This document shows positions 14,442 to 56,475 of a stretch of DNA of 64,000 nt, piece after piece. The stretch lies in NCBI RefSeq assembly GCF_009914755.1, contig NC_060943.1, one strand, 5' to 3'. How positions within the stretch are numbered: the stretch's first letter is position 1; each line of letters opens with the position of its first letter. Both the position numbers and the translations under genes were made by a program. The notes below the pieces were generated by a model. It was not told the origin of the DNA, ran no database searches, and saw only the letters and a program-made list of their open reading frames with translations. The DNA is from the human T2T-CHM13v2.0 reference genome, Homo sapiens.

Positions 14442-14627
<186 letters not shown>

Positions 14628-16215: not shown

Positions 16216-21594
<5,379 letters not shown>

Positions 21595-34740: not shown

Positions 34741-35530
34741 CTTTTCGCGGTGACGCCCATAAATTTTTAATAGAAAAAAAGAGGCCCTGGGAACCCCACG
34801 GACTAAAGTGCTTCCTATTCATGAGCCAGCACCTCCAGTCAGGATTCTCCCCTGACGACCCTCCCGTGATCCCTGCACAATCTGGGAGAGACGCGGCGCT
34901 GCGGGAGCAGAGCTGCCCAGAGAGGGCTCCAGGCCAGGACACAGTCACTGGGCAGGGAAGAGACAGGACGCCCGGAGCCCGCCTGTCAACGCAGCCGCCA
35001 TCTTATCGCTGAAGGGGACTGAGGCCGAGCTGGGCAAGGAGAACCCGGGCACGGATTGTGGAGCTGACTGAAGGAAGGCCTGAGGCTCGCCACAGCCGCA
35101 TCCCACCGGTTTCAACGAGCCCCGTTCCCTCTCTCGGGACGTCGCACCTGGCAGTCTCACCATTTCTAGGCTTCCAGGGGTTCCTGGCATCTTAGCTGTG
35201 GCTCTCCAATACCTGCAGGTCACAGGGCCACACAGGCTGGGCCTCCTGGAGCAGAGGACACAGAGCAGTGAAGTCGAGACCTGGAAACTCCGGCGGCAGC
35301 GAGAGACAAAGGCCCAGCCACATCCCGGAAGCCGCCCTGTCCGCTCCAGCTTTGTGCCTGATTGGACAGTTCCCAGCCCAGCGTCCCTGATTAGATAACG
35401 TTTAAGGCCCCGCCTTCTCAGGCCCTGAGTGACAGAAGATGTGATCAGACACTGGGCTGAATGAAGAAAGAGTGACAGCGTAGGCTGCAGCCTTTTCAGG
35501 CAGGGCTTCCTCAGCTCAGCCAGGCCCACC
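34740..35530 (-). promoter_or_regulatory. ZNF91: ZNF91 CpG-rich promoter, 5'UTR and start of intron 1
   Basis: CpG-rich relative to flanks. ETS-like CCGGAAG 35325-35331, CCAAT on minus strand 35361-35365, GC box ~35408, YY1 consensus AAGATGGCGGC on minus strand 34994-35004. TSS probably ~35300-35345 (not determinable exactly). Confidence 0.85.
35161..35190 (-). CDS. ZNF91: ZNF91 exon 1 coding part (MPGTPGSLEM), 30 nt, phase 0
   Basis: acagctaag ATG CCA GGA ACC CCT GGA AGC CTA GAA ATG|gtgaga; joins KRAB-A in frame. Confidence 0.95.
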
Positions 35531-38079: not shown

Positions 38080-38419
38080 TCATGCTTATAATCCCAGCAC
38101 TTTGGGGGAGCAAGTAATGAAGACTGTTTAAGCCCAGGAATTTGAGACCAGCCTGGGCAACATGGCAAAAACACATGTCTAAAAAAAATTTAAAAATTAA
38201 CTGAGCATGGTAGCCTGCACATTTAGTACCAGCTATTCAGGAGGCTGAGGGAGGAAAATTGCATGAGCCCAGAAGTCGAGGCTGCAGTGAGCCCTCATTG
38301 AGCCACTTCACTCTATTCTGGGTGACAGAGACCTTTTCTAAACAAAACAAAACAAAACAGCCAAAACATAGAAAGTTAAACTTACGGGGTTTTGTGTTTT
38401 TTTGTTTTTGTTTGTAATT

Positions 38420-39100
38420 ATTATTACTTCCAAAGTTTTTAAGGTACAGGTGATGTTTGGTCACATGGATAAGTTCTTTTGTAATCATTTCTAAGATTTA
38501 GGTGCACCCATCTCCCAAGCAGTGTGCACTGTACCCAATATGTAGTCTTTTATCCCTCACCCCTCTCTCCCGCCCTTTCTGCTGAGTACCCAGAGTCCAT
38601 TACATAATTCTTATGCCTTCGCATTCTCATAGCTTAGTTCCCACTTATAAGTGAGAACATACAATGCTTGGTTTTTTATTGCTGAGTTACTTAGAATAAT
38701 GGTCTCCAACTAAATCGAGATTGCTGCAAATGCTATTATTTTATTCCTCGTTAGGGCTGAGTAGTATGCATTGGTATATATATGCCACATTTTCTTTTTC
38801 CACTCATTAGCTGATGGGCATTAGGCTGCTTCCATATTTTTGCAATTGCAAATTGTGCTGCTATAAACATGTGTGTGCAAGTGTCTTACACATATAATTT
38901 CTTTTTCTTCATGTAGATACACAGTAGTAGAATTGCTTAATCAAATGGTAGCTTTACTTTTATTTAATGAATCTCCATACTGTTTTTCATAGTGGTTGTA
39001 CTAGTTTACATACCCACCAGCAGTGAAAAAGTATTCTTTTTTCACCACAGCCACGCCAACATGTATTATTTTTTGATGTTTTAATCATGGCCGGTTTTGC
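38420..39100 (-). mobile_element. L1 3' end fragment
   Basis: Reverse L1 3'UTR (cccacttataagtgagaacat...tatatgccacatttt). Confidence 0.8.
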
Positions 39101-39107
39101 AGGAATA

Positions 39108-39415
39108 TATTGGTTTGGTTCAGAAAGGCGGGACAACTCAAAGCGGGCGGCTTCCAGGTAAATTTAAATATTTTGTGGTTGACAAGTGGTGGAATCTGAA
39201 GACCTGGGATCAATGAAAGGGAAGGTTTAGGTTAAGGTAAAGGATTGTGGAGACCAAGTTTTATTGTACAGAGGAATCTCTCAGATAGGTGAATTAAAAG
39301 AGAGAGCAGTTTGTAAAATGTTTATTAGACCTAAACGGGTGCCTGGCTCTTAGTTGATTATCTCCTGGATCTGCAAAGAAAAAAAGGAAAACAAAAGGGG
39401 AAGGGGATTCTCTAC
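39108..39415 (-). mobile_element. MER4-family LTR fragment
   Basis: ggttcagaaaggcgggacaactc...ggggattctctaca resembles recalled MER4A reverse strand. Confidence 0.55.
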
Positions 39416-39417
39416 AA

Positions 39418-48190
<8,773 letters not shown>

Positions 48191-50284: not shown

Positions 50285-51267
50285 AGAAATACAAAAATTA
50301 GGTGGGTGTTGATGAGCCTGCTTGTAGTCCCAACTACTAGGGAGGCTGTGGCAGGAGAATGGCTTGAATCTGAGAGACTGAGGTTGCAGTGAGCCGAGAT
50401 CATGCCACTGTACTACAGTGTGAGTAACAGAATGAGACCCTGGCTCAAAAAAAAAAAAAAATAAAATAAAAATAAATAAATAAATAACTTCTTACCTAAA
50501 TCTAGATTCATCATATTTTACAAAATCTAGAAACAACCTCAGAACAATAACAACTCCATTCCCAGAAAGAGCCTCCCAACCCCACCTTTGTGCCAATCCC
50601 AACTGCATCTGCCTGTGGATTTCAAGGTTTTCAAGGCTCTGTGGCTTCTCTAAGTATAAAGGCTCTGTCCATGGCTATTGTGAGCAGGCCAGGACATCTG
50701 CAGGGGAGGCTCCTCAGGCAGAAGAGCTGCTTTTTCAATGATCTCCCTTTGCAGGCAAAACTATCCTTAGCTTGCAGTCACTGAGTTCAGGCTTCTACTT
50801 CCCAGTCAGGATTATTCACTTAGTTTGAAATAAGAAAATGACCAATGTATGGCCAGACATGATGGCTCACGCCTGTAATTGCAGCACTTTGGAAGGCTGA
50901 GGCAGGTGGATCACTTGAGGTCAGGAGTTCGAGACCAGCCTGGCAAACATGGTGAAACCCTATCTCTACTAAAAACACAAAAATTAGCCGGGCGTGGTGG
51001 CATGCGCCTGTAATCCCAGCTATTCAGAAGGCTGAGGCACGAGATTCCCTTAAACCTGGGAGGCTCCCTTAAACCTGGGAGGCGCAGGTTGCAGTGAGCC
51101 AAGATCGTGCCACTGCACTCCAGCCTGGGTAACAGAGTGAGACTCAGTCTCAAAAATAAATAAATAATAATAATTAAAAAAATGACCAATGTTTCAAAAA
51201 AGTGCAAAATCACTCCAACACACTGTTTATAGAATAGTGTAAGGAAATTGTAAGACTTAAATTTTCA

Positions 51268-51620
<353 letters not shown>

Positions 51621-52819
51621 TTAACTATTTCCATGATAGATAATTTAATAAACAATCATATGTGAACATTTCTAGAAGATGTCAAGTTCCATCTCATAAA
51701 ATTTAGCATTAAACTTGGACATCTAGACAACAGAATACAGAACAGAGATTATCCACTGTTACAAATTCTAGACACCACAAAAAAGAGGAGCTGATGGTTT
51801 GAGAAATATATACAATGCACCAATTAATCTATCACATTTGCTTGTGGAAATATATTCACTTTGTATAGCCATAATGAAAAAAAGATTTTTCCTATTTCTT
51901 TTCTCTGGTAGCATTCCCAAAGCAAAGCCTGGGGTTCTATTTAAAATCATGCAACCAGGAAAAGCAGACATGAGAAACTTACTACACTCACTCTGGAGAA
52001 GATAAAGGTAAATAAGAATCTTTAATACATAAAATATATGAGTAGATTTTTCTGAAATATACCTTTCATAGTCTGACTTTTTAAACATCTTTTAAACTCT
52101 TCTGATAAAATATAAGTTACAGTTATTAAAAAACTGAAATAGAAATGTGAAAAAATCTTTCCAAGGTAAAAAACTCAGGAAGAGGCACATGCCACAATGC
52201 CTGACTAATGTTTTTGTATTTTTAGTAGAGACGGGGTTTCACCATGTTGGCCAAGCTGGAAATAATTTTTTACTCTGCGGCCAGGTGTGGTGGCTCATGC
52301 CTGTAATTCCAGCTACTTGGGAGGCTGAGGTGAGAGAATCGCTTAAAGGCGGAGGGAGGCTGAGGTGAGAGAATCGCTGGGAGGCAGAGGTTGCAGTGAG
52401 CCGAGACTGCACCACTGCACTTTAGCCTGGGCAACAGAGAAAGACTGTCTCAAAAAAAAAGCATACTCTGCACTAGCAGCATTAACACAAAAAGTTCTAG
52501 TAAACCCTGACACCCACTCAAATGTCACATCCTCTATAAAGCCCTCCTTGATTTTCCCAGTGCTATGTCACTGGCAGAATTGATCACTATTACCATTTAG
52601 CTCCTCAATACTTTATAAGTCTTTTTATGTACAAGGGTTATTCTCTCCAGAATAAATTAATCATTTACACACCTATCCATGCTAATGAACTATAAACTCC
52701 TATGGGGCAGGTATGTTGAACCCTGTTCATCTGTGTAATCCAAATGTCTGATACTTAATAGGTGTCATATACACATAAAATCAAAATGCTGTCAGGGAAT
52801 TATTGGAAAAGCTACCAAA

Positions 52820-53760
<941 letters not shown>

Positions 53761-55379
53761 GAAAAAATAATTTTAATTTTCTAAAAGGTTAGCTTTCTAA
53801 GACAAATGGTATGCGAGGAAATTTCCACAGGCCTAAGCCATCCAGCTGCTCTTCTGAGAGGCTACACTCTTCCTCCTCAGGCTGTCCTCTAAGAGATGAC
53901 CCAGGGGATGATATTCATTAGACACTCCAAGAGATATGGCCACTGTGGGCATCTTGGGTTATCCCTGACGGTTCTGAAAATCATGAACAAGAAAAGACCG
54001 GAGGGCTGCCACAAAGGGCCCTGGAATTTCTCCAAAGCAAAACTTCAACCGAAAGACCTACTAACAAGGTGTATGCACCAGGGAAGATAAAAGGACAGTC
54101 ACAGAGATTTTTTTTCTTTTTAACAGTGGAGTTCCAGAGGATTATTTTCTCACGTAACATGTTTACAGACTTCGGAGGTTGAGGCGGGTGGATCACCTGA
54201 GGTCAAGAATTCAAGAGCAGCCTGGCCAACATGAGGAAACCCTGTCTCTCCTAAAAATACAAAAATTAGCCGGGCATGGTGGTGGGAGCCTGTAATCCCA
54301 GCTACTTGGGAGGCTGAGGCATGAGAATCGCTTGAATCTGGGAGGCGGGGATTGCACTGCACTCCAGCCTGGGCAACAAGAGTGAAACTCCATCTCCAAA
54401 AAAAAAAAGAAAAAAAAAATTGTATACAGACAACAATTATTTTAAAACCTGCCATCCACTGCTGTGTAAGAACATGATTAATAATAAAAACACTGTGTTT
54501 GAAATGTAAAATAAAGGACAAATAGTTGATAGTGTTGTAAATTGGAGAGAGGAAGTTGTTCTCATTTCCACTTTTGAGAATGTAGGAACAAAGGTGGAAA
54601 TTTATAATTTTACTACAAGCCTGAGTTAAGCTAGGGTAAAAGGGTAGTGGATTAGAAGTCCTGCTTGCCATACATTAGGAAGTCACAGAGGAAAACCAGT
54701 CCTCCTGTGGAGTGTTATTTAAAAAGCAGGAAATTAGACTGAAGGGGCTCTAGTGCCCTGTGTTCATAAGTAAAAAATGTAAAACCTATCTCGGATTCAC
54801 TTCTTATAAATTATTTTAGGCAGAAACAAAATTCAGGCTTAACCTGCAATTAACCTCTGATTACATAACCAGGAAATTTCCACCCGAATCATACAAATAA
54901 GGTGACTACATAAACTGTAACCAATTCTTGAATTTGGTTTGCCTTCTCACACGCCCTTTTCAAAACCCTTCCCTTTTTGCCTTTCAGGTGGCCCACATAT
55001 TATGGCTGGGTGCTTTCCATTTCACTAATCACTGCTCAGATAAACTCGTTAACGTTTTAACGTTGACTCCCTTTACTTTGCAAGAGAAGAAGCTGGGCGC
55101 GGTGGCTCATGCTTGTAATCTTAGCACTTTGGGAGGCCGCGGCGGTGGGGGGATCACTTGAGTCCAGGGGTTCCAGACCAGCTTCCACCATGGCGAAACC
55201 ACTTCTCTACTAGAAATACAAAAATCAGCCAGGCGTGGTGGTGCAGGTCTTTAATCCCAGCTTTTCGGGGGGCTTAGGCACGAGAATCGCTTGAACCTGG
55301 GAGGCGGAGGTTGCAGTGATCACGCCATTGCACTCCAGCCTCGGCGACAGAGCAAGACTTTGTCTCAAACAAACCAACA

Positions 55380-55990
55380 AAATGTTTAACAAAAGAGACT
55401 GGGAGCCCCACCGGCCACAGCTCCTCCTACGCACACACGAGTCGGGATTCTGCCCTGATGACCCGCCTGGCATCCCTGAACAATCTGGGAAACACTCGGG
55501 GCTGCGTGCAGAGCTGCCCAGGGAGCTCCAGATAGGGCGCCGCAGGGACTGGGCGGGACGCGCGGGTCATTGCTGCGGGCCCAGCCACCATCTTGCGGCC
55601 AGAGGGACCTGGGACGGAGCTGCGCCAGCAGGGACTCAGGTCGGCAACCCAGGAGCGGTGAGGAGGCCAGTCCCGTCGGTTTCTCAGCCAGCTCTCCCCT
55701 CTCGGGATGCTCAACCCCTCACACTCACCCTTTCCCACCTTCTGGAATGTCCTGGCATCTTAGCTGTCTGTGCACGTCCCAGGACCTGCAGATCACAGGG
55801 CAACAGCCTGTCACCGGCTGGGGCGAGAGGGGGGCAGAGGTGGAGGACGTTGAATAGCAGAAAGCGATCCCAAGCTCTGGCTGCAGCGAGAGACAAAAGC
55901 CCCGCCAAATGCCGGATGCCACGCCCTCCTCTCCAACTGTGCCACTGATTCGATAAAGCACCAGCACTCGCCCAGTACCACTCCCTCCAC
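55380..55990 (-). promoter_or_regulatory. Orphan KZNF-type CpG promoter paralogous to the ZNF91 promoter
   Basis: Collinear homology to 34780-35400, e.g. gcagcgagagacaaa, gacctgcag.tcacaggg, gagctgcccag.gag and a YY1-like GCCACCATCTT. Confidence 0.85.
55729..55900 (-). ncRNA. LINC01224: First exon of a KZNF-promoter-derived transcript, probably lncRNA LINC01224 (downstream exons not resolved)
   Basis: acagctaagATG CCA GGA CAT TCC AGA AGG TGG GAA AGG|gtgagt (55758-55729). I found no KRAB or finger exons between here and ZNF91. Position and strand ~20 kb upstream of ZNF91 fit my recollection of LINC01224. Confidence 0.6.
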
Positions 55991-56175
55991 CCCCAGGAAA
56001 ACAGGCTAAAGCAGGGAGTGTCAACCATAGGGAATTACAGCCAATTAAGAAGTAAGCTGAGACTTGAAATGAACTTGCTCTTTCCCTTACCTGGGTCTGC
56101 TTGTATAATGCATCTTATTTGCTACTTAAGGGTAAGAAAAGAACATTTGGATTATTTTTGTTTGTTTGAGACTGA

Positions 56176-56475
<300 letters not shown>

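What the first reader, a model, noticed from the sequence alone, without database searches (positions are those of the whole stretch)
55729..55758. Orphan upstream first exon is splice-compatible with ZNF91: hidden alternative promoter?
Seen: a second KZNF exon 1 with the same start context (acagctaagATG), the same 30-nt phase-0 coding length (MPGHSRRWER vs MPGTPGSLEM) and a strong AGG|gtgagt donor. It lies on the same strand 20.5 kb upstream and has no KRAB/finger exons of its own that I could find. Inference: splicing 55729 to 14600 would give full-length ZNF91 with a new N-terminus, so the presumed lncRNA promoter may double as a second ZNF91 promoter. Its transcription could also interfere with the main promoter.
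Basis: partly seen in the sequence, partly recalled or inferred. Interest (0 to 1): 0.8.

Follow-up and report, generated by a model that had tools for sequence, protein, structure and literature searches.

The report
Conserved distal first exon upstream of ZNF91
The exon is the known first exon of the non-coding RNA LINC01224, and it matches an upstream alternative first exon that several sister zinc-finger genes use, so it might also feed ZNF91, though no annotated transcript shows that.

Summary
On the minus strand an ATG at 55758 opens a 30-nt frame that ends at 55729 before AGG|gtgagt, in the same acagctaagATG context as ZNF91 exon 1. No KRAB or finger remnants lie upstream of ZNF91.

The exon is not a lone orphan. 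It belongs to a small "distal" (D) clade of KZNF first exons, separate from the "proximal" (P) clade that holds ZNF91 exon 1 (13 v 26 rows, support 100/100). Seven of eight chr19 D copies lie 16-58 kb upstream of a same-strand P copy: ZNF43, ZNF730, ZNF724, ZNF91, ZNF725P, the RPSA2 locus and ZNF254.

RefSeq uses D as an alternative first exon of ZNF43, ZNF730, ZNF254 and RPSA2. Direct D-to-KRAB-A junctions are annotated in ZNF43 (curated), ZNF730 (model) and RPSA2, with a 30-nt start in the first two.

For ZNF91, none of 14 RefSeq models starts at D. D drives LINC01224, which splices into a satellite-like array and ends 3.7 kb before the ZNF91 start site.

The proposed 55729-to-14600 junction is therefore plausible by homology but unshown, and probably minor. 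The shared context and 30-nt length are inherited family traits, not independent evidence. Interest is moderate, because the locus is a vertigo GWAS hit.

The parts
55910..55990 (-). Core promoter of the distal (D-type) first exon
   Evidence: It aligns with the promoter block shared by all family copies. In this copy the first CCAAT reads CGAAT, a 29-bp block holding the second CCAAT is missing, and CTTCCGG reads CATCCGG. RefSeq marks 55534-56189 as a NANOG-H3K27ac hESC enhancer. The motif names are recalled, not tested.
55729..55909 (-). D-type first exon, which is LINC01224 exon 1
   Evidence: RefSeq NR_126448.1 and NR_126449.1. It falls in the D clade with support 100/100. CpG observed/expected is 0.47 at 62% GC, against 0.53 for ZNF91 exon 1.
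55729..55758 (-). 30-nt open frame MPGHSRRWER, the first ATG of the exon
   Evidence: The frame runs on into LINC01224 exon 2 for 35 residues in all. Four substitutions in the 30 nt are private to this copy, similar to its overall private rate of 10.9%.
55720..55728 (-). 5' splice site, AGG|GTGAGTGT
   Evidence: It is used by both LINC01224 transcripts.
50495..55075 (-). Unique sequence downstream of D, collinear with the ZNF724/IPO5P1 module
   Evidence: Seven collinear blocks at 85-94% identity to chr19:23402492-23408236. A weaker collinear match (68-81%) exists to ZNF91 intron 1 at 31.4-35.4 kb.
40150..48150 (.). Diverged tandem array, period about 71-74 bp where TRF can see it; presumed beta-satellite
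   Evidence: TRF on 47639-48072. Many matches to the D-P intervals of ZNF43 and ZNF724. The chunk 47456-48132 is 84-87% identical to places inside the D-P intervals of ZNF254, ZNF730 and the 23.71 Mb module, and about 72-74% identical to chr19, chr7 and acrocentric arrays. The name rests on the literature, not on a test.
43042..45171 (-). Four internal LINC01224 exons (45094-45171, 44787-44944, 43556-43583, 43042-43345) inside the array
   Evidence: RefSeq. All have AG acceptors and GT donors. The qPCR reverse primer of PMC8286114 maps to 43561-43580.
39069..40883 (-). LINC01224 terminal exon, ending 3.7 kb upstream of the ZNF91 start site
   Evidence: RefSeq. ATTAAA at 39085-39080, with a genomic A-rich run at the end. 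The shRNA target of PMC8286114 lies at 39109-39129. The stretch 38375-39413 has no counterpart in the ZNF43 or ZNF724 modules.
35148..35334 (-). ZNF91 canonical (P-type) first exon and promoter
   Evidence: RefSeq. It has at least 40 P-type relatives at 80-87% identity and falls in the P clade.
14474..14600 (-). ZNF91 KRAB-A exon, the acceptor of the proposed junction
   Evidence: RefSeq. The acceptor has a pyrimidine-rich tract before CAG|GGA. The frame stays open after a 55729-to-14600 join.

Best explanation
The exon at 55729-55909 is the distal (D-type) first exon of a two-first-exon module. The module runs: D, then about 5 kb of unique sequence, then a satellite-like array, then the proximal (P-type) first exon, then an intron with a BNIP3 pseudogene, then KRAB-A, KRAB-B and the fingers. 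This module was copied as a unit when ZNF91 and its neighbours arose.

D is an old paralogue of the ordinary KZNF promoter and first exon. That explains why it keeps the same start context, the same 30-nt block and a GT donor.

In the ZNF91 copy D is a live promoter. Its exon splices from AGG|GT into cryptic exons inside the array and ends at an ATTAAA site 3.7 kb before the ZNF91 start site, giving LINC01224.

In ZNF43, ZNF730, ZNF254 and the RPSA2 locus, D-initiated transcripts run past P and splice to KRAB-A. A minor ZNF91 isoform made by 55729 to 14600, or by 43042 to 14600, is therefore a reasonable expectation. The main ZNF91 output comes from P.

Shown here: the homology, the module layout, the usage in paralogues and the frame compatibility. 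Inferred: that any D transcript reaches ZNF91 exons.
For: - Family membership: a tree of 39 first-exon units splits D (13 rows) from P (26 rows) at 100/100 support, with the LINC01224 exon inside D. Its nearest relatives are IPO5P1 exon 1 (81% over 745 nt), ZNF254-D (78%) and ZNF730-D (80%, partial).
- Module layout: for 7 of 8 chr19 D copies, the next P copy downstream is on the same strand, 16-58 kb away.
- Shared interval: 50.5-55.1 kb is collinear with the ZNF724 module at 85-94%. An array chunk has its best matches, 84-87%, inside the D-P intervals of ZNF254, ZNF730 and the 23.71 Mb module.
- Shared intron content: BNIP3 pseudogenes sit between P and KRAB-A in ZNF91, ZNF724, ZNF730, the RPSA2 locus and ZNF254.
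- Usage as a start exon: D is the first exon of 14 of 17 ZNF43, 24 of 32 ZNF254, 10 of 19 ZNF730, 13 RPSA2, 2 IPO5P1 and 2 LINC01224 RefSeq transcripts.
- Direct D-to-KRAB-A junctions: ZNF43 NM_001256653.2 and ZNF730 XM_054319432.1, each with a 30-nt coding start in D, plus 9 of 13 D-initiated RPSA2 transcripts. The RPSA2 second exon is 82% identical to ZNF91 KRAB-A.
- Frame stays open after the join.
- Promoter state: CpG content is like that of active family promoters, 0.47 against 0.29 for the unannotated 23.71 Mb copy. RefSeq lists hESC H3K27ac and NANOG elements on D.
- Published qPCR primers span D to the 28-nt exon.
Against: - No RefSeq ZNF91 model (0 of 14: 2 curated mRNAs, 1 model mRNA, 11 model non-coding RNAs) starts at D, and no read-through gene is listed. 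Gnomon did model such junctions for ZNF730 and ZNF254.
- In the sister module (ZNF724), D transcripts are also annotated as a separate non-coding gene, IPO5P1, ending 4.6 kb before P.
- This D copy has lost both CCAAT boxes and changed the CTTCCGG motif. It has the longest end branch in the D clade, 0.19 against 0.077-0.13 for the other non-acrocentric D copies.
- Its tenth codon is AGG, so the ATG that most family genes start from is absent.
- CRISPRi next to the canonical start site silenced ZNF91 efficiently (PMC11479940).
- The rows of the tree were fetched with D or P queries. The labels therefore follow the searches, although the branch between the clades is long (0.13 + 0.18).
- The genome search scores only the best candidates (40 of 103 and 40 of 53), so further D copies may exist.
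Confidence: 0.72

Rival explanations
1. One reading: the upstream exon is a hidden second ZNF91 promoter that makes full-length ZNF91 with the N-terminus MPGHSRRWER in amounts that matter.
For: Frame compatibility. A good donor. The same junction type is annotated in ZNF43, ZNF730 and RPSA2. The promoter is active. LINC01224 and ZNF91 share eQTL variants, and expression goes the same way (PMC11341872; PMC13579776).
Against: 0 of 14 RefSeq ZNF91 models. Strong nearer acceptors and a poly(A) site capture D transcripts. CRISPRi at the canonical start site silences ZNF91. The 30-nt frame shows no sign of constraint: 4 private changes in 30 nt against 10.9% overall. The published LINC01224 shRNA targets the last exon at 39109-39129, so its effect on ZNF91 cannot come from cutting a direct D-to-KRAB-A mRNA.
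Confidence: 0.2
2. The D region acts on ZNF91 as an enhancer, with LINC01224 as its RNA product. Coupling works through chromatin looping, not through shared transcripts. This is the published model.
For: PMC8286114 (passages read): LINC01224 is nuclear, knockdown lowers ZNF91 RNA and protein, and 3C contacts between the 'enhancer' and the ZNF91 promoter fall after knockdown. RefSeq lists hESC enhancer elements on D. Hi-C loops between LINC01224 and ZNF91 are reported in PMC13579776.
Against: LINC01224 is a spliced RNA of 5 or 6 exons, 2.4-2.6 kb, starting from a promoter homologous to KZNF promoters. It is not a short unspliced bidirectional enhancer transcript. The published evidence is one paper in one cell system with one shRNA. 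This model does not exclude the best explanation.
Confidence: 0.4
3. Transcription from D reads through and interferes with the ZNF91 promoter (negative coupling).
For: Same strand. The annotated end lies only 3.7 kb upstream of the ZNF91 start site. The end sits at a variant ATTAAA signal beside a genomic A-run, so it could be weak or an internal-priming artefact.
Against: The published coupling is positive: knockdown lowers ZNF91, and risk alleles are concordant with increased expression of the locus genes. In ZNF43, ZNF730 and ZNF254, D transcripts cross P, yet P remains the reference promoter.
Confidence: 0.1
4. The exon is the last remnant of a KZNF gene that died in place between LINC01224 and ZNF91.
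For: D is a paralogue of KZNF first exons, so in deep time it must derive from a KZNF 5' end.
Against: No KRAB or finger remnants in 35335-64000. The same D-array-P layout recurs in six other modules, so any loss of a gene body predates the duplications and did not happen at this locus.
Confidence: 0.05

Closest known systems
ZNF43 distal first exon (chr19:21990373-21990533; RefSeq NM_001256653.2 and 13 other transcripts)
   Same: A D-clade paralogue, 75-78% identical depending on the query span. It lies 16 kb upstream of the P-type reference first exon on the same strand, with a satellite-like array between them. It has the same ATG, 30-nt frame and GTGAGT donor.
   Different: In ZNF43 the direct junction to KRAB-A with a 30-nt coding start is a curated RefSeq mRNA. 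For ZNF91 no such transcript is annotated. ZNF43-D keeps both CCAAT boxes and the tenth-codon ATG.
IPO5P1 exon 1 upstream of ZNF724 (chr19:23408898-23409073)
   Same: The nearest relative, 81%, and the sister module: 85-94% collinear identity over about 5 kb downstream of D. D transcripts are annotated as a separate non-coding gene that ends a few kb before P.
   Different: There the terminal exons come from an importin-5 processed pseudogene lying between D and P. Here they come from the array and from a stretch with no counterpart in the sister module.
RPSA2 first exon (chr19:23903473-23903603)
   Same: A D-clade member. It splices directly over a P copy into a KRAB-A exon.
   Different: The start ATG is deleted in that copy. 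The KRAB exons are pseudo-exons carrying stops, and the coding part is a downstream RPSA retrocopy.
Enhancer-derived lncRNA model of LINC01224 (PMC8286114)
   Same: Same locus and same claim of cis coupling to ZNF91.
   Different: That paper treats the region as an enhancer. In the passages I read it does not mention that the start exon is a KZNF first-exon paralogue, or that sister genes use the equivalent exon as an alternative first exon.

Membership tests
D-type distal first exon of the chr19p12 KZNF two-first-exon module | Sequence homology to the distal first exons of ZNF43, ZNF254 and ZNF730, separate from P-type first exons | tested here: met
   74-81% identity over up to 745 nt. The D/P split has 100/100 support in a 39-row tree.
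D-type distal first exon of the chr19p12 KZNF two-first-exon module | Lies upstream of, and on the same strand as, a P-type first exon followed by KRAB exons | tested here: met
   20.6 kb upstream of ZNF91 exon 1. The pattern holds in 7 of 8 chr19 D copies.
D-type distal first exon of the chr19p12 KZNF two-first-exon module | Satellite-like array between D and P that is shared with sister modules | tested here: met
   The name beta-satellite itself was not tested.
D-type distal first exon of the chr19p12 KZNF two-first-exon module | Used as a transcription start exon | tested here: met
   RefSeq LINC01224 exon 1. 6 of 8 chr19 D copies are annotated start exons.
Alternative promoter / first exon of ZNF91 | Transcripts that start here contain ZNF91 coding exons | tested here: inconclusive
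   0 of 14 RefSeq ZNF91 models and no read-through gene.
Alternative promoter / first exon of ZNF91 | Reading-frame compatibility with the first shared coding exon | tested here: met
   The join 55729 to 14600 stays open through all coding sequence in the window.
Alternative promoter / first exon of ZNF91 | Translation of the new N-terminus | not testable with these tools
   No ribosome-profiling or proteomic data. The protein word search listed no human ZNF91 entry, and none of 120 listed proteins had a D- or P-type N-terminus.
Enhancer RNA | Short, mostly unspliced, unstable transcript from an enhancer rather than from a promoter-type element | tested here: not met
   A spliced RNA of 5 or 6 exons, 2390-2564 nt, with an ATTAAA signal, from a CpG-rich promoter homologous to KZNF promoters.
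KZNF pseudogene decayed in place | Remnants of KRAB or zinc-finger exons downstream of the first exon | tested here: not met
   tblastn with E up to 10 against 35335-64000 found none.

The most novel reading that the evidence does not exclude
The D promoter is a genuine, tissue-restricted second promoter of ZNF91, for example in cerebellum or early embryo. Its transcripts either encode ZNF91 with the MPGHSRRWER start or, when they pass through array exons, carry an upstream open frame and yield KRAB-truncated protein, as RefSeq annotates for ZNF254. The vertigo and vestibulopathy GWAS signal, whose variants are the strongest LINC01224 eQTLs, would then act by shifting D usage and so ZNF91 dose or isoform. 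More broadly, the D-array-P module would be a conserved regulatory design of the ZNF91 subfamily.
Probability: 0.15. Interest if true: 0.6.

Novelty: new member of a known kind. Interest (0 to 1): 0.4.

Why it matters
ZNF91 represses SVA and L1 elements. The ZNF91/LINC01224 locus is a replicated GWAS hit for vertigo and bilateral vestibulopathy, and the associated variants are strong LINC01224 eQTLs in brain (PMC8497462, PMC11341872, PMC13579776; passages read).

The LINC01224 start exon is the positional counterpart of an alternative first exon that ZNF43, ZNF730, ZNF254 and RPSA2 really use. That gives a concrete, cheap test of how LINC01224 promoter variants could touch ZNF91: shared transcripts, enhancer action or read-through.

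It also explains why several non-coding or pseudogene transcripts in the cluster (LINC01224, IPO5P1, RPSA2 5' exons) start from look-alike exons.

In my searches of the paper library no listed title or abstract start, and none of the passages I read in eight of the papers, described this homology or a ZNF91 upstream promoter. Supplements were closed and subscription papers are not held.

Tried and rejected
- A recent tandem duplication of the ZNF91 5' end was rejected. Repeat-masked self-comparison shows only 68-81% collinear similarity between 50.5-56 kb and 31.4-35.4 kb, and ZNF91's own exon 1 is not among the closest relatives of the upstream exon.
- Strong CpG decay of this D copy was considered after the long tree branch. 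It is only weakly supported: CpG observed/expected is 0.47, and 8 of 25 majority-CpG positions are lost, against 15 of 30 in the unannotated 23.71 Mb copy.
- The protein word search with ZNF91 exon 4 listed 120 of 5789 hits, mostly reptile and other mammalian poly-zinc-finger proteins. It listed no human ZNF91, and none of the 120 had a D- or P-type N-terminus. It says nothing on the question, and I ran no further protein searches.
- Eichler et al. 1998 on 19p12 beta-satellite could not be opened by PubMed id. I saw it only as a citation in PMC2443715 and PMC2671837. Calling the array beta-satellite is therefore an inference from the period, the acrocentric matches and those citations.
- The searches 'ZNF91' + 'alternative promoter' (54 papers, 12 listed) and 'ZNF43' + 'alternative first exon' (3 papers) showed nothing relevant in the listings.
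- eQTL tables and Hi-C figures of the GWAS papers are in supplements that were closed. They may bear on isoform-level effects.
Full report
**1. The observation**

On the minus strand the sequence reads acagctaag ATG CCA GGA CAT TCC AGA AGG TGG GAA AGG | gtgagt. The ATG is at 55758 and the last exon base is 55729. ZNF91 exon 1 reads acagctaag ATG ... GAA ATG | gtgaga at 35190-35161.

The exon and its donor are RefSeq LINC01224 exon 1 (55729-55909). Both LINC01224 transcripts splice from 55729 to 45171.

A scripted join of 55729 to 14600 stays open through all ZNF91 coding sequence in the window.

tblastn of ZNF91 KRAB-A, KRAB-B and the first 300 residues of exon 4 against 35335-64000 found nothing credible at E up to 10.

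**2. What the exon is**

*Two clades of first exon.* A search of the whole reference genome with 55396-56140 did not return ZNF91 exon 1 among its best matches. It returned these:
- IPO5P1 exon 1, 81% over the whole 745 nt
- the far-upstream first exon of ZNF254, 78%
- the far-upstream first exon of ZNF730, 80% (partial)
- RPSA2 exon 1, 75%
- the far-upstream first exon of ZNF43, 75%
- an unannotated copy at 23.71 Mb, 74%
- copies on chr7, chr12 and the acrocentric short arms

The same search with ZNF91 exon 1 returned at least 40 copies at 80-87%. These are the ordinary first exons of ZNF431, ZNF254, ZNF714, ZNF208, ZNF98, ZNF85, ZNF724 and so on.

I call the two sets D (distal) and P (proximal).

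*The tree.* A maximum-likelihood tree of 39 units separates D from P with 100/100 support, and the LINC01224 exon lies inside D. The rows were:
- the window's two exons
- 12 of the 30 loci; I left out the partial 21.61 Mb copy, six near-identical acrocentric copies and nine loci that matched only an upstream repeat
- 24 of the 30 loci; I left out the window's own copy (L031) and L048, L050, L052, L054 and L059
- the ZNF43 P exon

The labels follow the searches that fetched the rows. However, the branch between the clades is long (0.13 + 0.18 changes per site).

**3. The module**

*D sits upstream of P.* For 7 of 8 chr19 D copies, the next P copy downstream is on the same strand, 16-58 kb away:

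| Gene or locus | D-to-P distance |
|---|---|
| ZNF43 | 16 kb |
| ZNF91 | 21 kb |
| ZNF724 | 24 kb |
| RPSA2 locus | 28 kb |
| ZNF730 | 41 kb |
| ZNF254 | 56 kb |
| copy upstream of ZNF725P | 58 kb |

The exception is the partial copy at 21.61 Mb.

*The interval is shared.*
- 50.5-55.1 kb of the window is collinear with the ZNF724 module at 85-94% identity.
- 40-48 kb is a diverged tandem array with a period of 71-74 bp where TRF detects it. It matches the D-P intervals of ZNF43 and ZNF724 many times over.
- The chunk 47456-48132 has its best matches, 84-87%, inside the D-P intervals of ZNF254, ZNF730 and the 23.71 Mb module. Weaker matches (about 72-74%) lie on chr19, chr7 and acrocentric arms.

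I take the array for the beta-satellite reported in the 19p12 zinc-finger cluster. I saw Eichler 1998 only as a citation in PMC2443715 and PMC2671837, and I did not test the name.

*Downstream of P.* BNIP3 pseudogenes lie in the first intron of ZNF91, ZNF724, ZNF730, the RPSA2 locus and ZNF254.

The unit that was duplicated therefore ran from D through P to the fingers. The exon is not a stray orphan of a gene that died here. Any loss of a gene body behind D predates these duplications.

**4. How D is used in the sister modules (RefSeq)**

D is the start exon of 14 of 17 ZNF43 transcripts, 24 of 32 ZNF254, 10 of 19 ZNF730, 13 RPSA2, 2 IPO5P1 and 2 LINC01224 transcripts.

- ZNF43 NM_001256653.2 (curated) joins D directly to KRAB-A, with a coding start of exactly 30 nt in D.
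- ZNF730 XM_054319432.1 (model) does the same.
- 9 of the 13 D-initiated RPSA2 transcripts join D to an exon that is 82% identical to ZNF91 KRAB-A, followed by one 92% identical to KRAB-B. These transcripts pass over a P copy.
- ZNF254 D transcripts reach KRAB-A through a 96-nt exon and further array exons. They are annotated to start translation inside KRAB-A.

**5. What the shared features mean**

In the 39-row alignment the block acagctaag / ATG or ACG / 30 nt / GT is present throughout.
- The 30-nt spacing holds in 32 of 39 rows.
- An intact ATG + 30 nt + GT is found in 13 of 39 rows (8 of 13 D, 5 of 26 P).
- Most P copies have ACG in place of the first ATG, and start at the ATG that forms the tenth codon.

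The same context and the same length are thus inherited traits.

Within D, the 30-nt block and the first 60 nt of the intron are the best-kept parts. Mean pairwise identity among the seven other non-acrocentric D copies is 0.87 and 0.84, against 0.57-0.73 elsewhere. The LINC01224 copy is the most diverged in the 30-nt block, at 0.79. It has 4 private changes in 30 nt, against a private rate of 10.9% overall. Its tenth codon is AGG.

Its promoter has lost a 29-bp block with one CCAAT box. The other CCAAT reads CGAAT, and CTTCCGG reads CATCCGG. The motif names are recalled, not tested.

Even so, CpG observed/expected is 0.47. That resembles ZNF91 exon 1 (0.53) and differs from the unannotated 23.71 Mb copy (0.29). 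RefSeq lists hESC H3K27ac and NANOG elements on it.

**6. What D does at ZNF91**

Both LINC01224 transcripts pass through exons inside the array, and all of these exons have AG/GT sites. They end at 39069. An ATTAAA lies 16 nt upstream of that end and a genomic A-run sits at the end itself, so the annotated end could be a weak site or an internal-priming artefact.

The ATG opens a frame of only 35 residues in these RNAs.

None of the 14 RefSeq ZNF91 models starts upstream of 35334, and no read-through gene is listed.

The stretch that holds the end, 38375-39413, has no counterpart in the ZNF43 or ZNF724 modules.

**7. Published evidence (passages read, not whole papers)**

- PMC8286114 calls LINC01224 an enhancer RNA of ZNF91. 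It reports that knockdown lowers ZNF91 and lowers 3C contacts. I mapped its reagents. The shRNA target is 39109-39129 in the last exon, and the qPCR primers are 55758-55777 in D and 43561-43580 in the 28-nt exon.
- PMC11479940 reports efficient silencing of ZNF91, and near-complete loss of H3K9me3 at SVAs, with two guides next to the canonical start site. This argues that P carries most of the output in NPCs, although dCas9-KRAB at P could also block transcripts coming from D.
- PMC8497462, PMC11341872 and PMC13579776 report the locus as a vertigo and vestibulopathy GWAS hit. The lead variants are LINC01224 eQTLs in brain. ZNF91 eQTL effects are weaker and confined to cortex. Risk alleles are concordant with increased expression. 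This positive coupling speaks against simple promoter interference.

**8. Verdict**

The exon is an already annotated lncRNA first exon. The new point is that it is the ZNF91-module copy of a distal first exon that sister genes use as an alternative promoter. In my five paper searches no listed title or abstract start, and none of the passages I read in eight of the papers, described this.

The annotation, the nearer splice and poly(A) sites, the decayed promoter motifs and the CRISPRi result all suggest that, if it exists, it is minor.

My estimates:
- about 0.45 that the junction is detectable somewhere
- about 0.2 that it matters for ZNF91 protein output
- about 0.15 for the boldest reading, which links it to the GWAS signal

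Noticed in passing
window 40150-48150; also chr19:24197059-24197739 and chr19:23230256-23230920: A diverged tandem array with a period of about 71-74 bp fills the D-P interval and supplies the internal LINC01224 exons. The matching parts of the ZNF254 and ZNF730 intervals overlap annotated 5'UTR exons of those genes. Satellite-derived exons therefore seem a common feature of D-initiated transcripts.
   Followed up: partly
L010-L019 (acrocentric short arms of chr13, 14, 15, 21, 22); chr12:38049154; chrY:19197058 and 18521622: D-type first-exon copies (about 68-74% identical) also lie outside the zinc-finger clusters, near satellite-like arrays on acrocentric arms. One is the start of lncRNA LOC124908463. 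Three of the four acrocentric copies aligned have GTG in place of the ATG.
   Followed up: partly
window 55994-56140: The 147 nt just upstream of the D promoter match many other places on their own, at 77-88% identity: 4q and 10q ends, chr3:75.69 Mb, chr16:32.26 Mb, chrY and acrocentric arms. This is probably a separate repeated element that the supplied repeat table does not mask.
   Followed up: no
L067 (chr19:23948201-23949320) and chr19:23903473-23903603: The protein-coding retrogene RPSA2 is transcribed from a D-type exon and passes through KRAB-A and KRAB-B pseudo-exons, 82% and 92% identical to those of ZNF91 and carrying stops, before reaching its own coding exon.
   Followed up: yes
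window 39069-39130: The annotated LINC01224 3' end sits at ATTAAA plus a genomic A-rich run. The sequence just beyond it looked to me like a LINE-1 ORF2 fragment; that is recalled resemblance, not tested. The stretch 38375-39413 has no counterpart in the two sister modules compared.
   Followed up: partly
window 35148-35161: One ZNF91 model (XR_008485188.1) uses a donor 13 nt downstream of the usual one, CAG|GTGCGA at 35148. In an mRNA this would shift the frame.
   Followed up: no
window 20154-20710 and five sister genes: BNIP3 pseudogenes (P8, P36-P40) lie antisense in the first intron, between P and KRAB-A, of ZNF91, ZNF728, ZNF730, ZNF724, the RPSA2 locus and ZNF254. They mark the extent of the duplicated unit. 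ZNF728 has the pseudogene, but no D copy was found for it.
   Followed up: partly
39 first-exon copies aligned: In 15 of 26 P-type copies the position of the upstream ATG reads ACG. A single C-to-T change at that CpG would create the extended 10-residue start seen in ZNF91, ZNF254, ZNF98, ZNF486 and ZNF493, so this start may have been gained or lost repeatedly.
   Followed up: no
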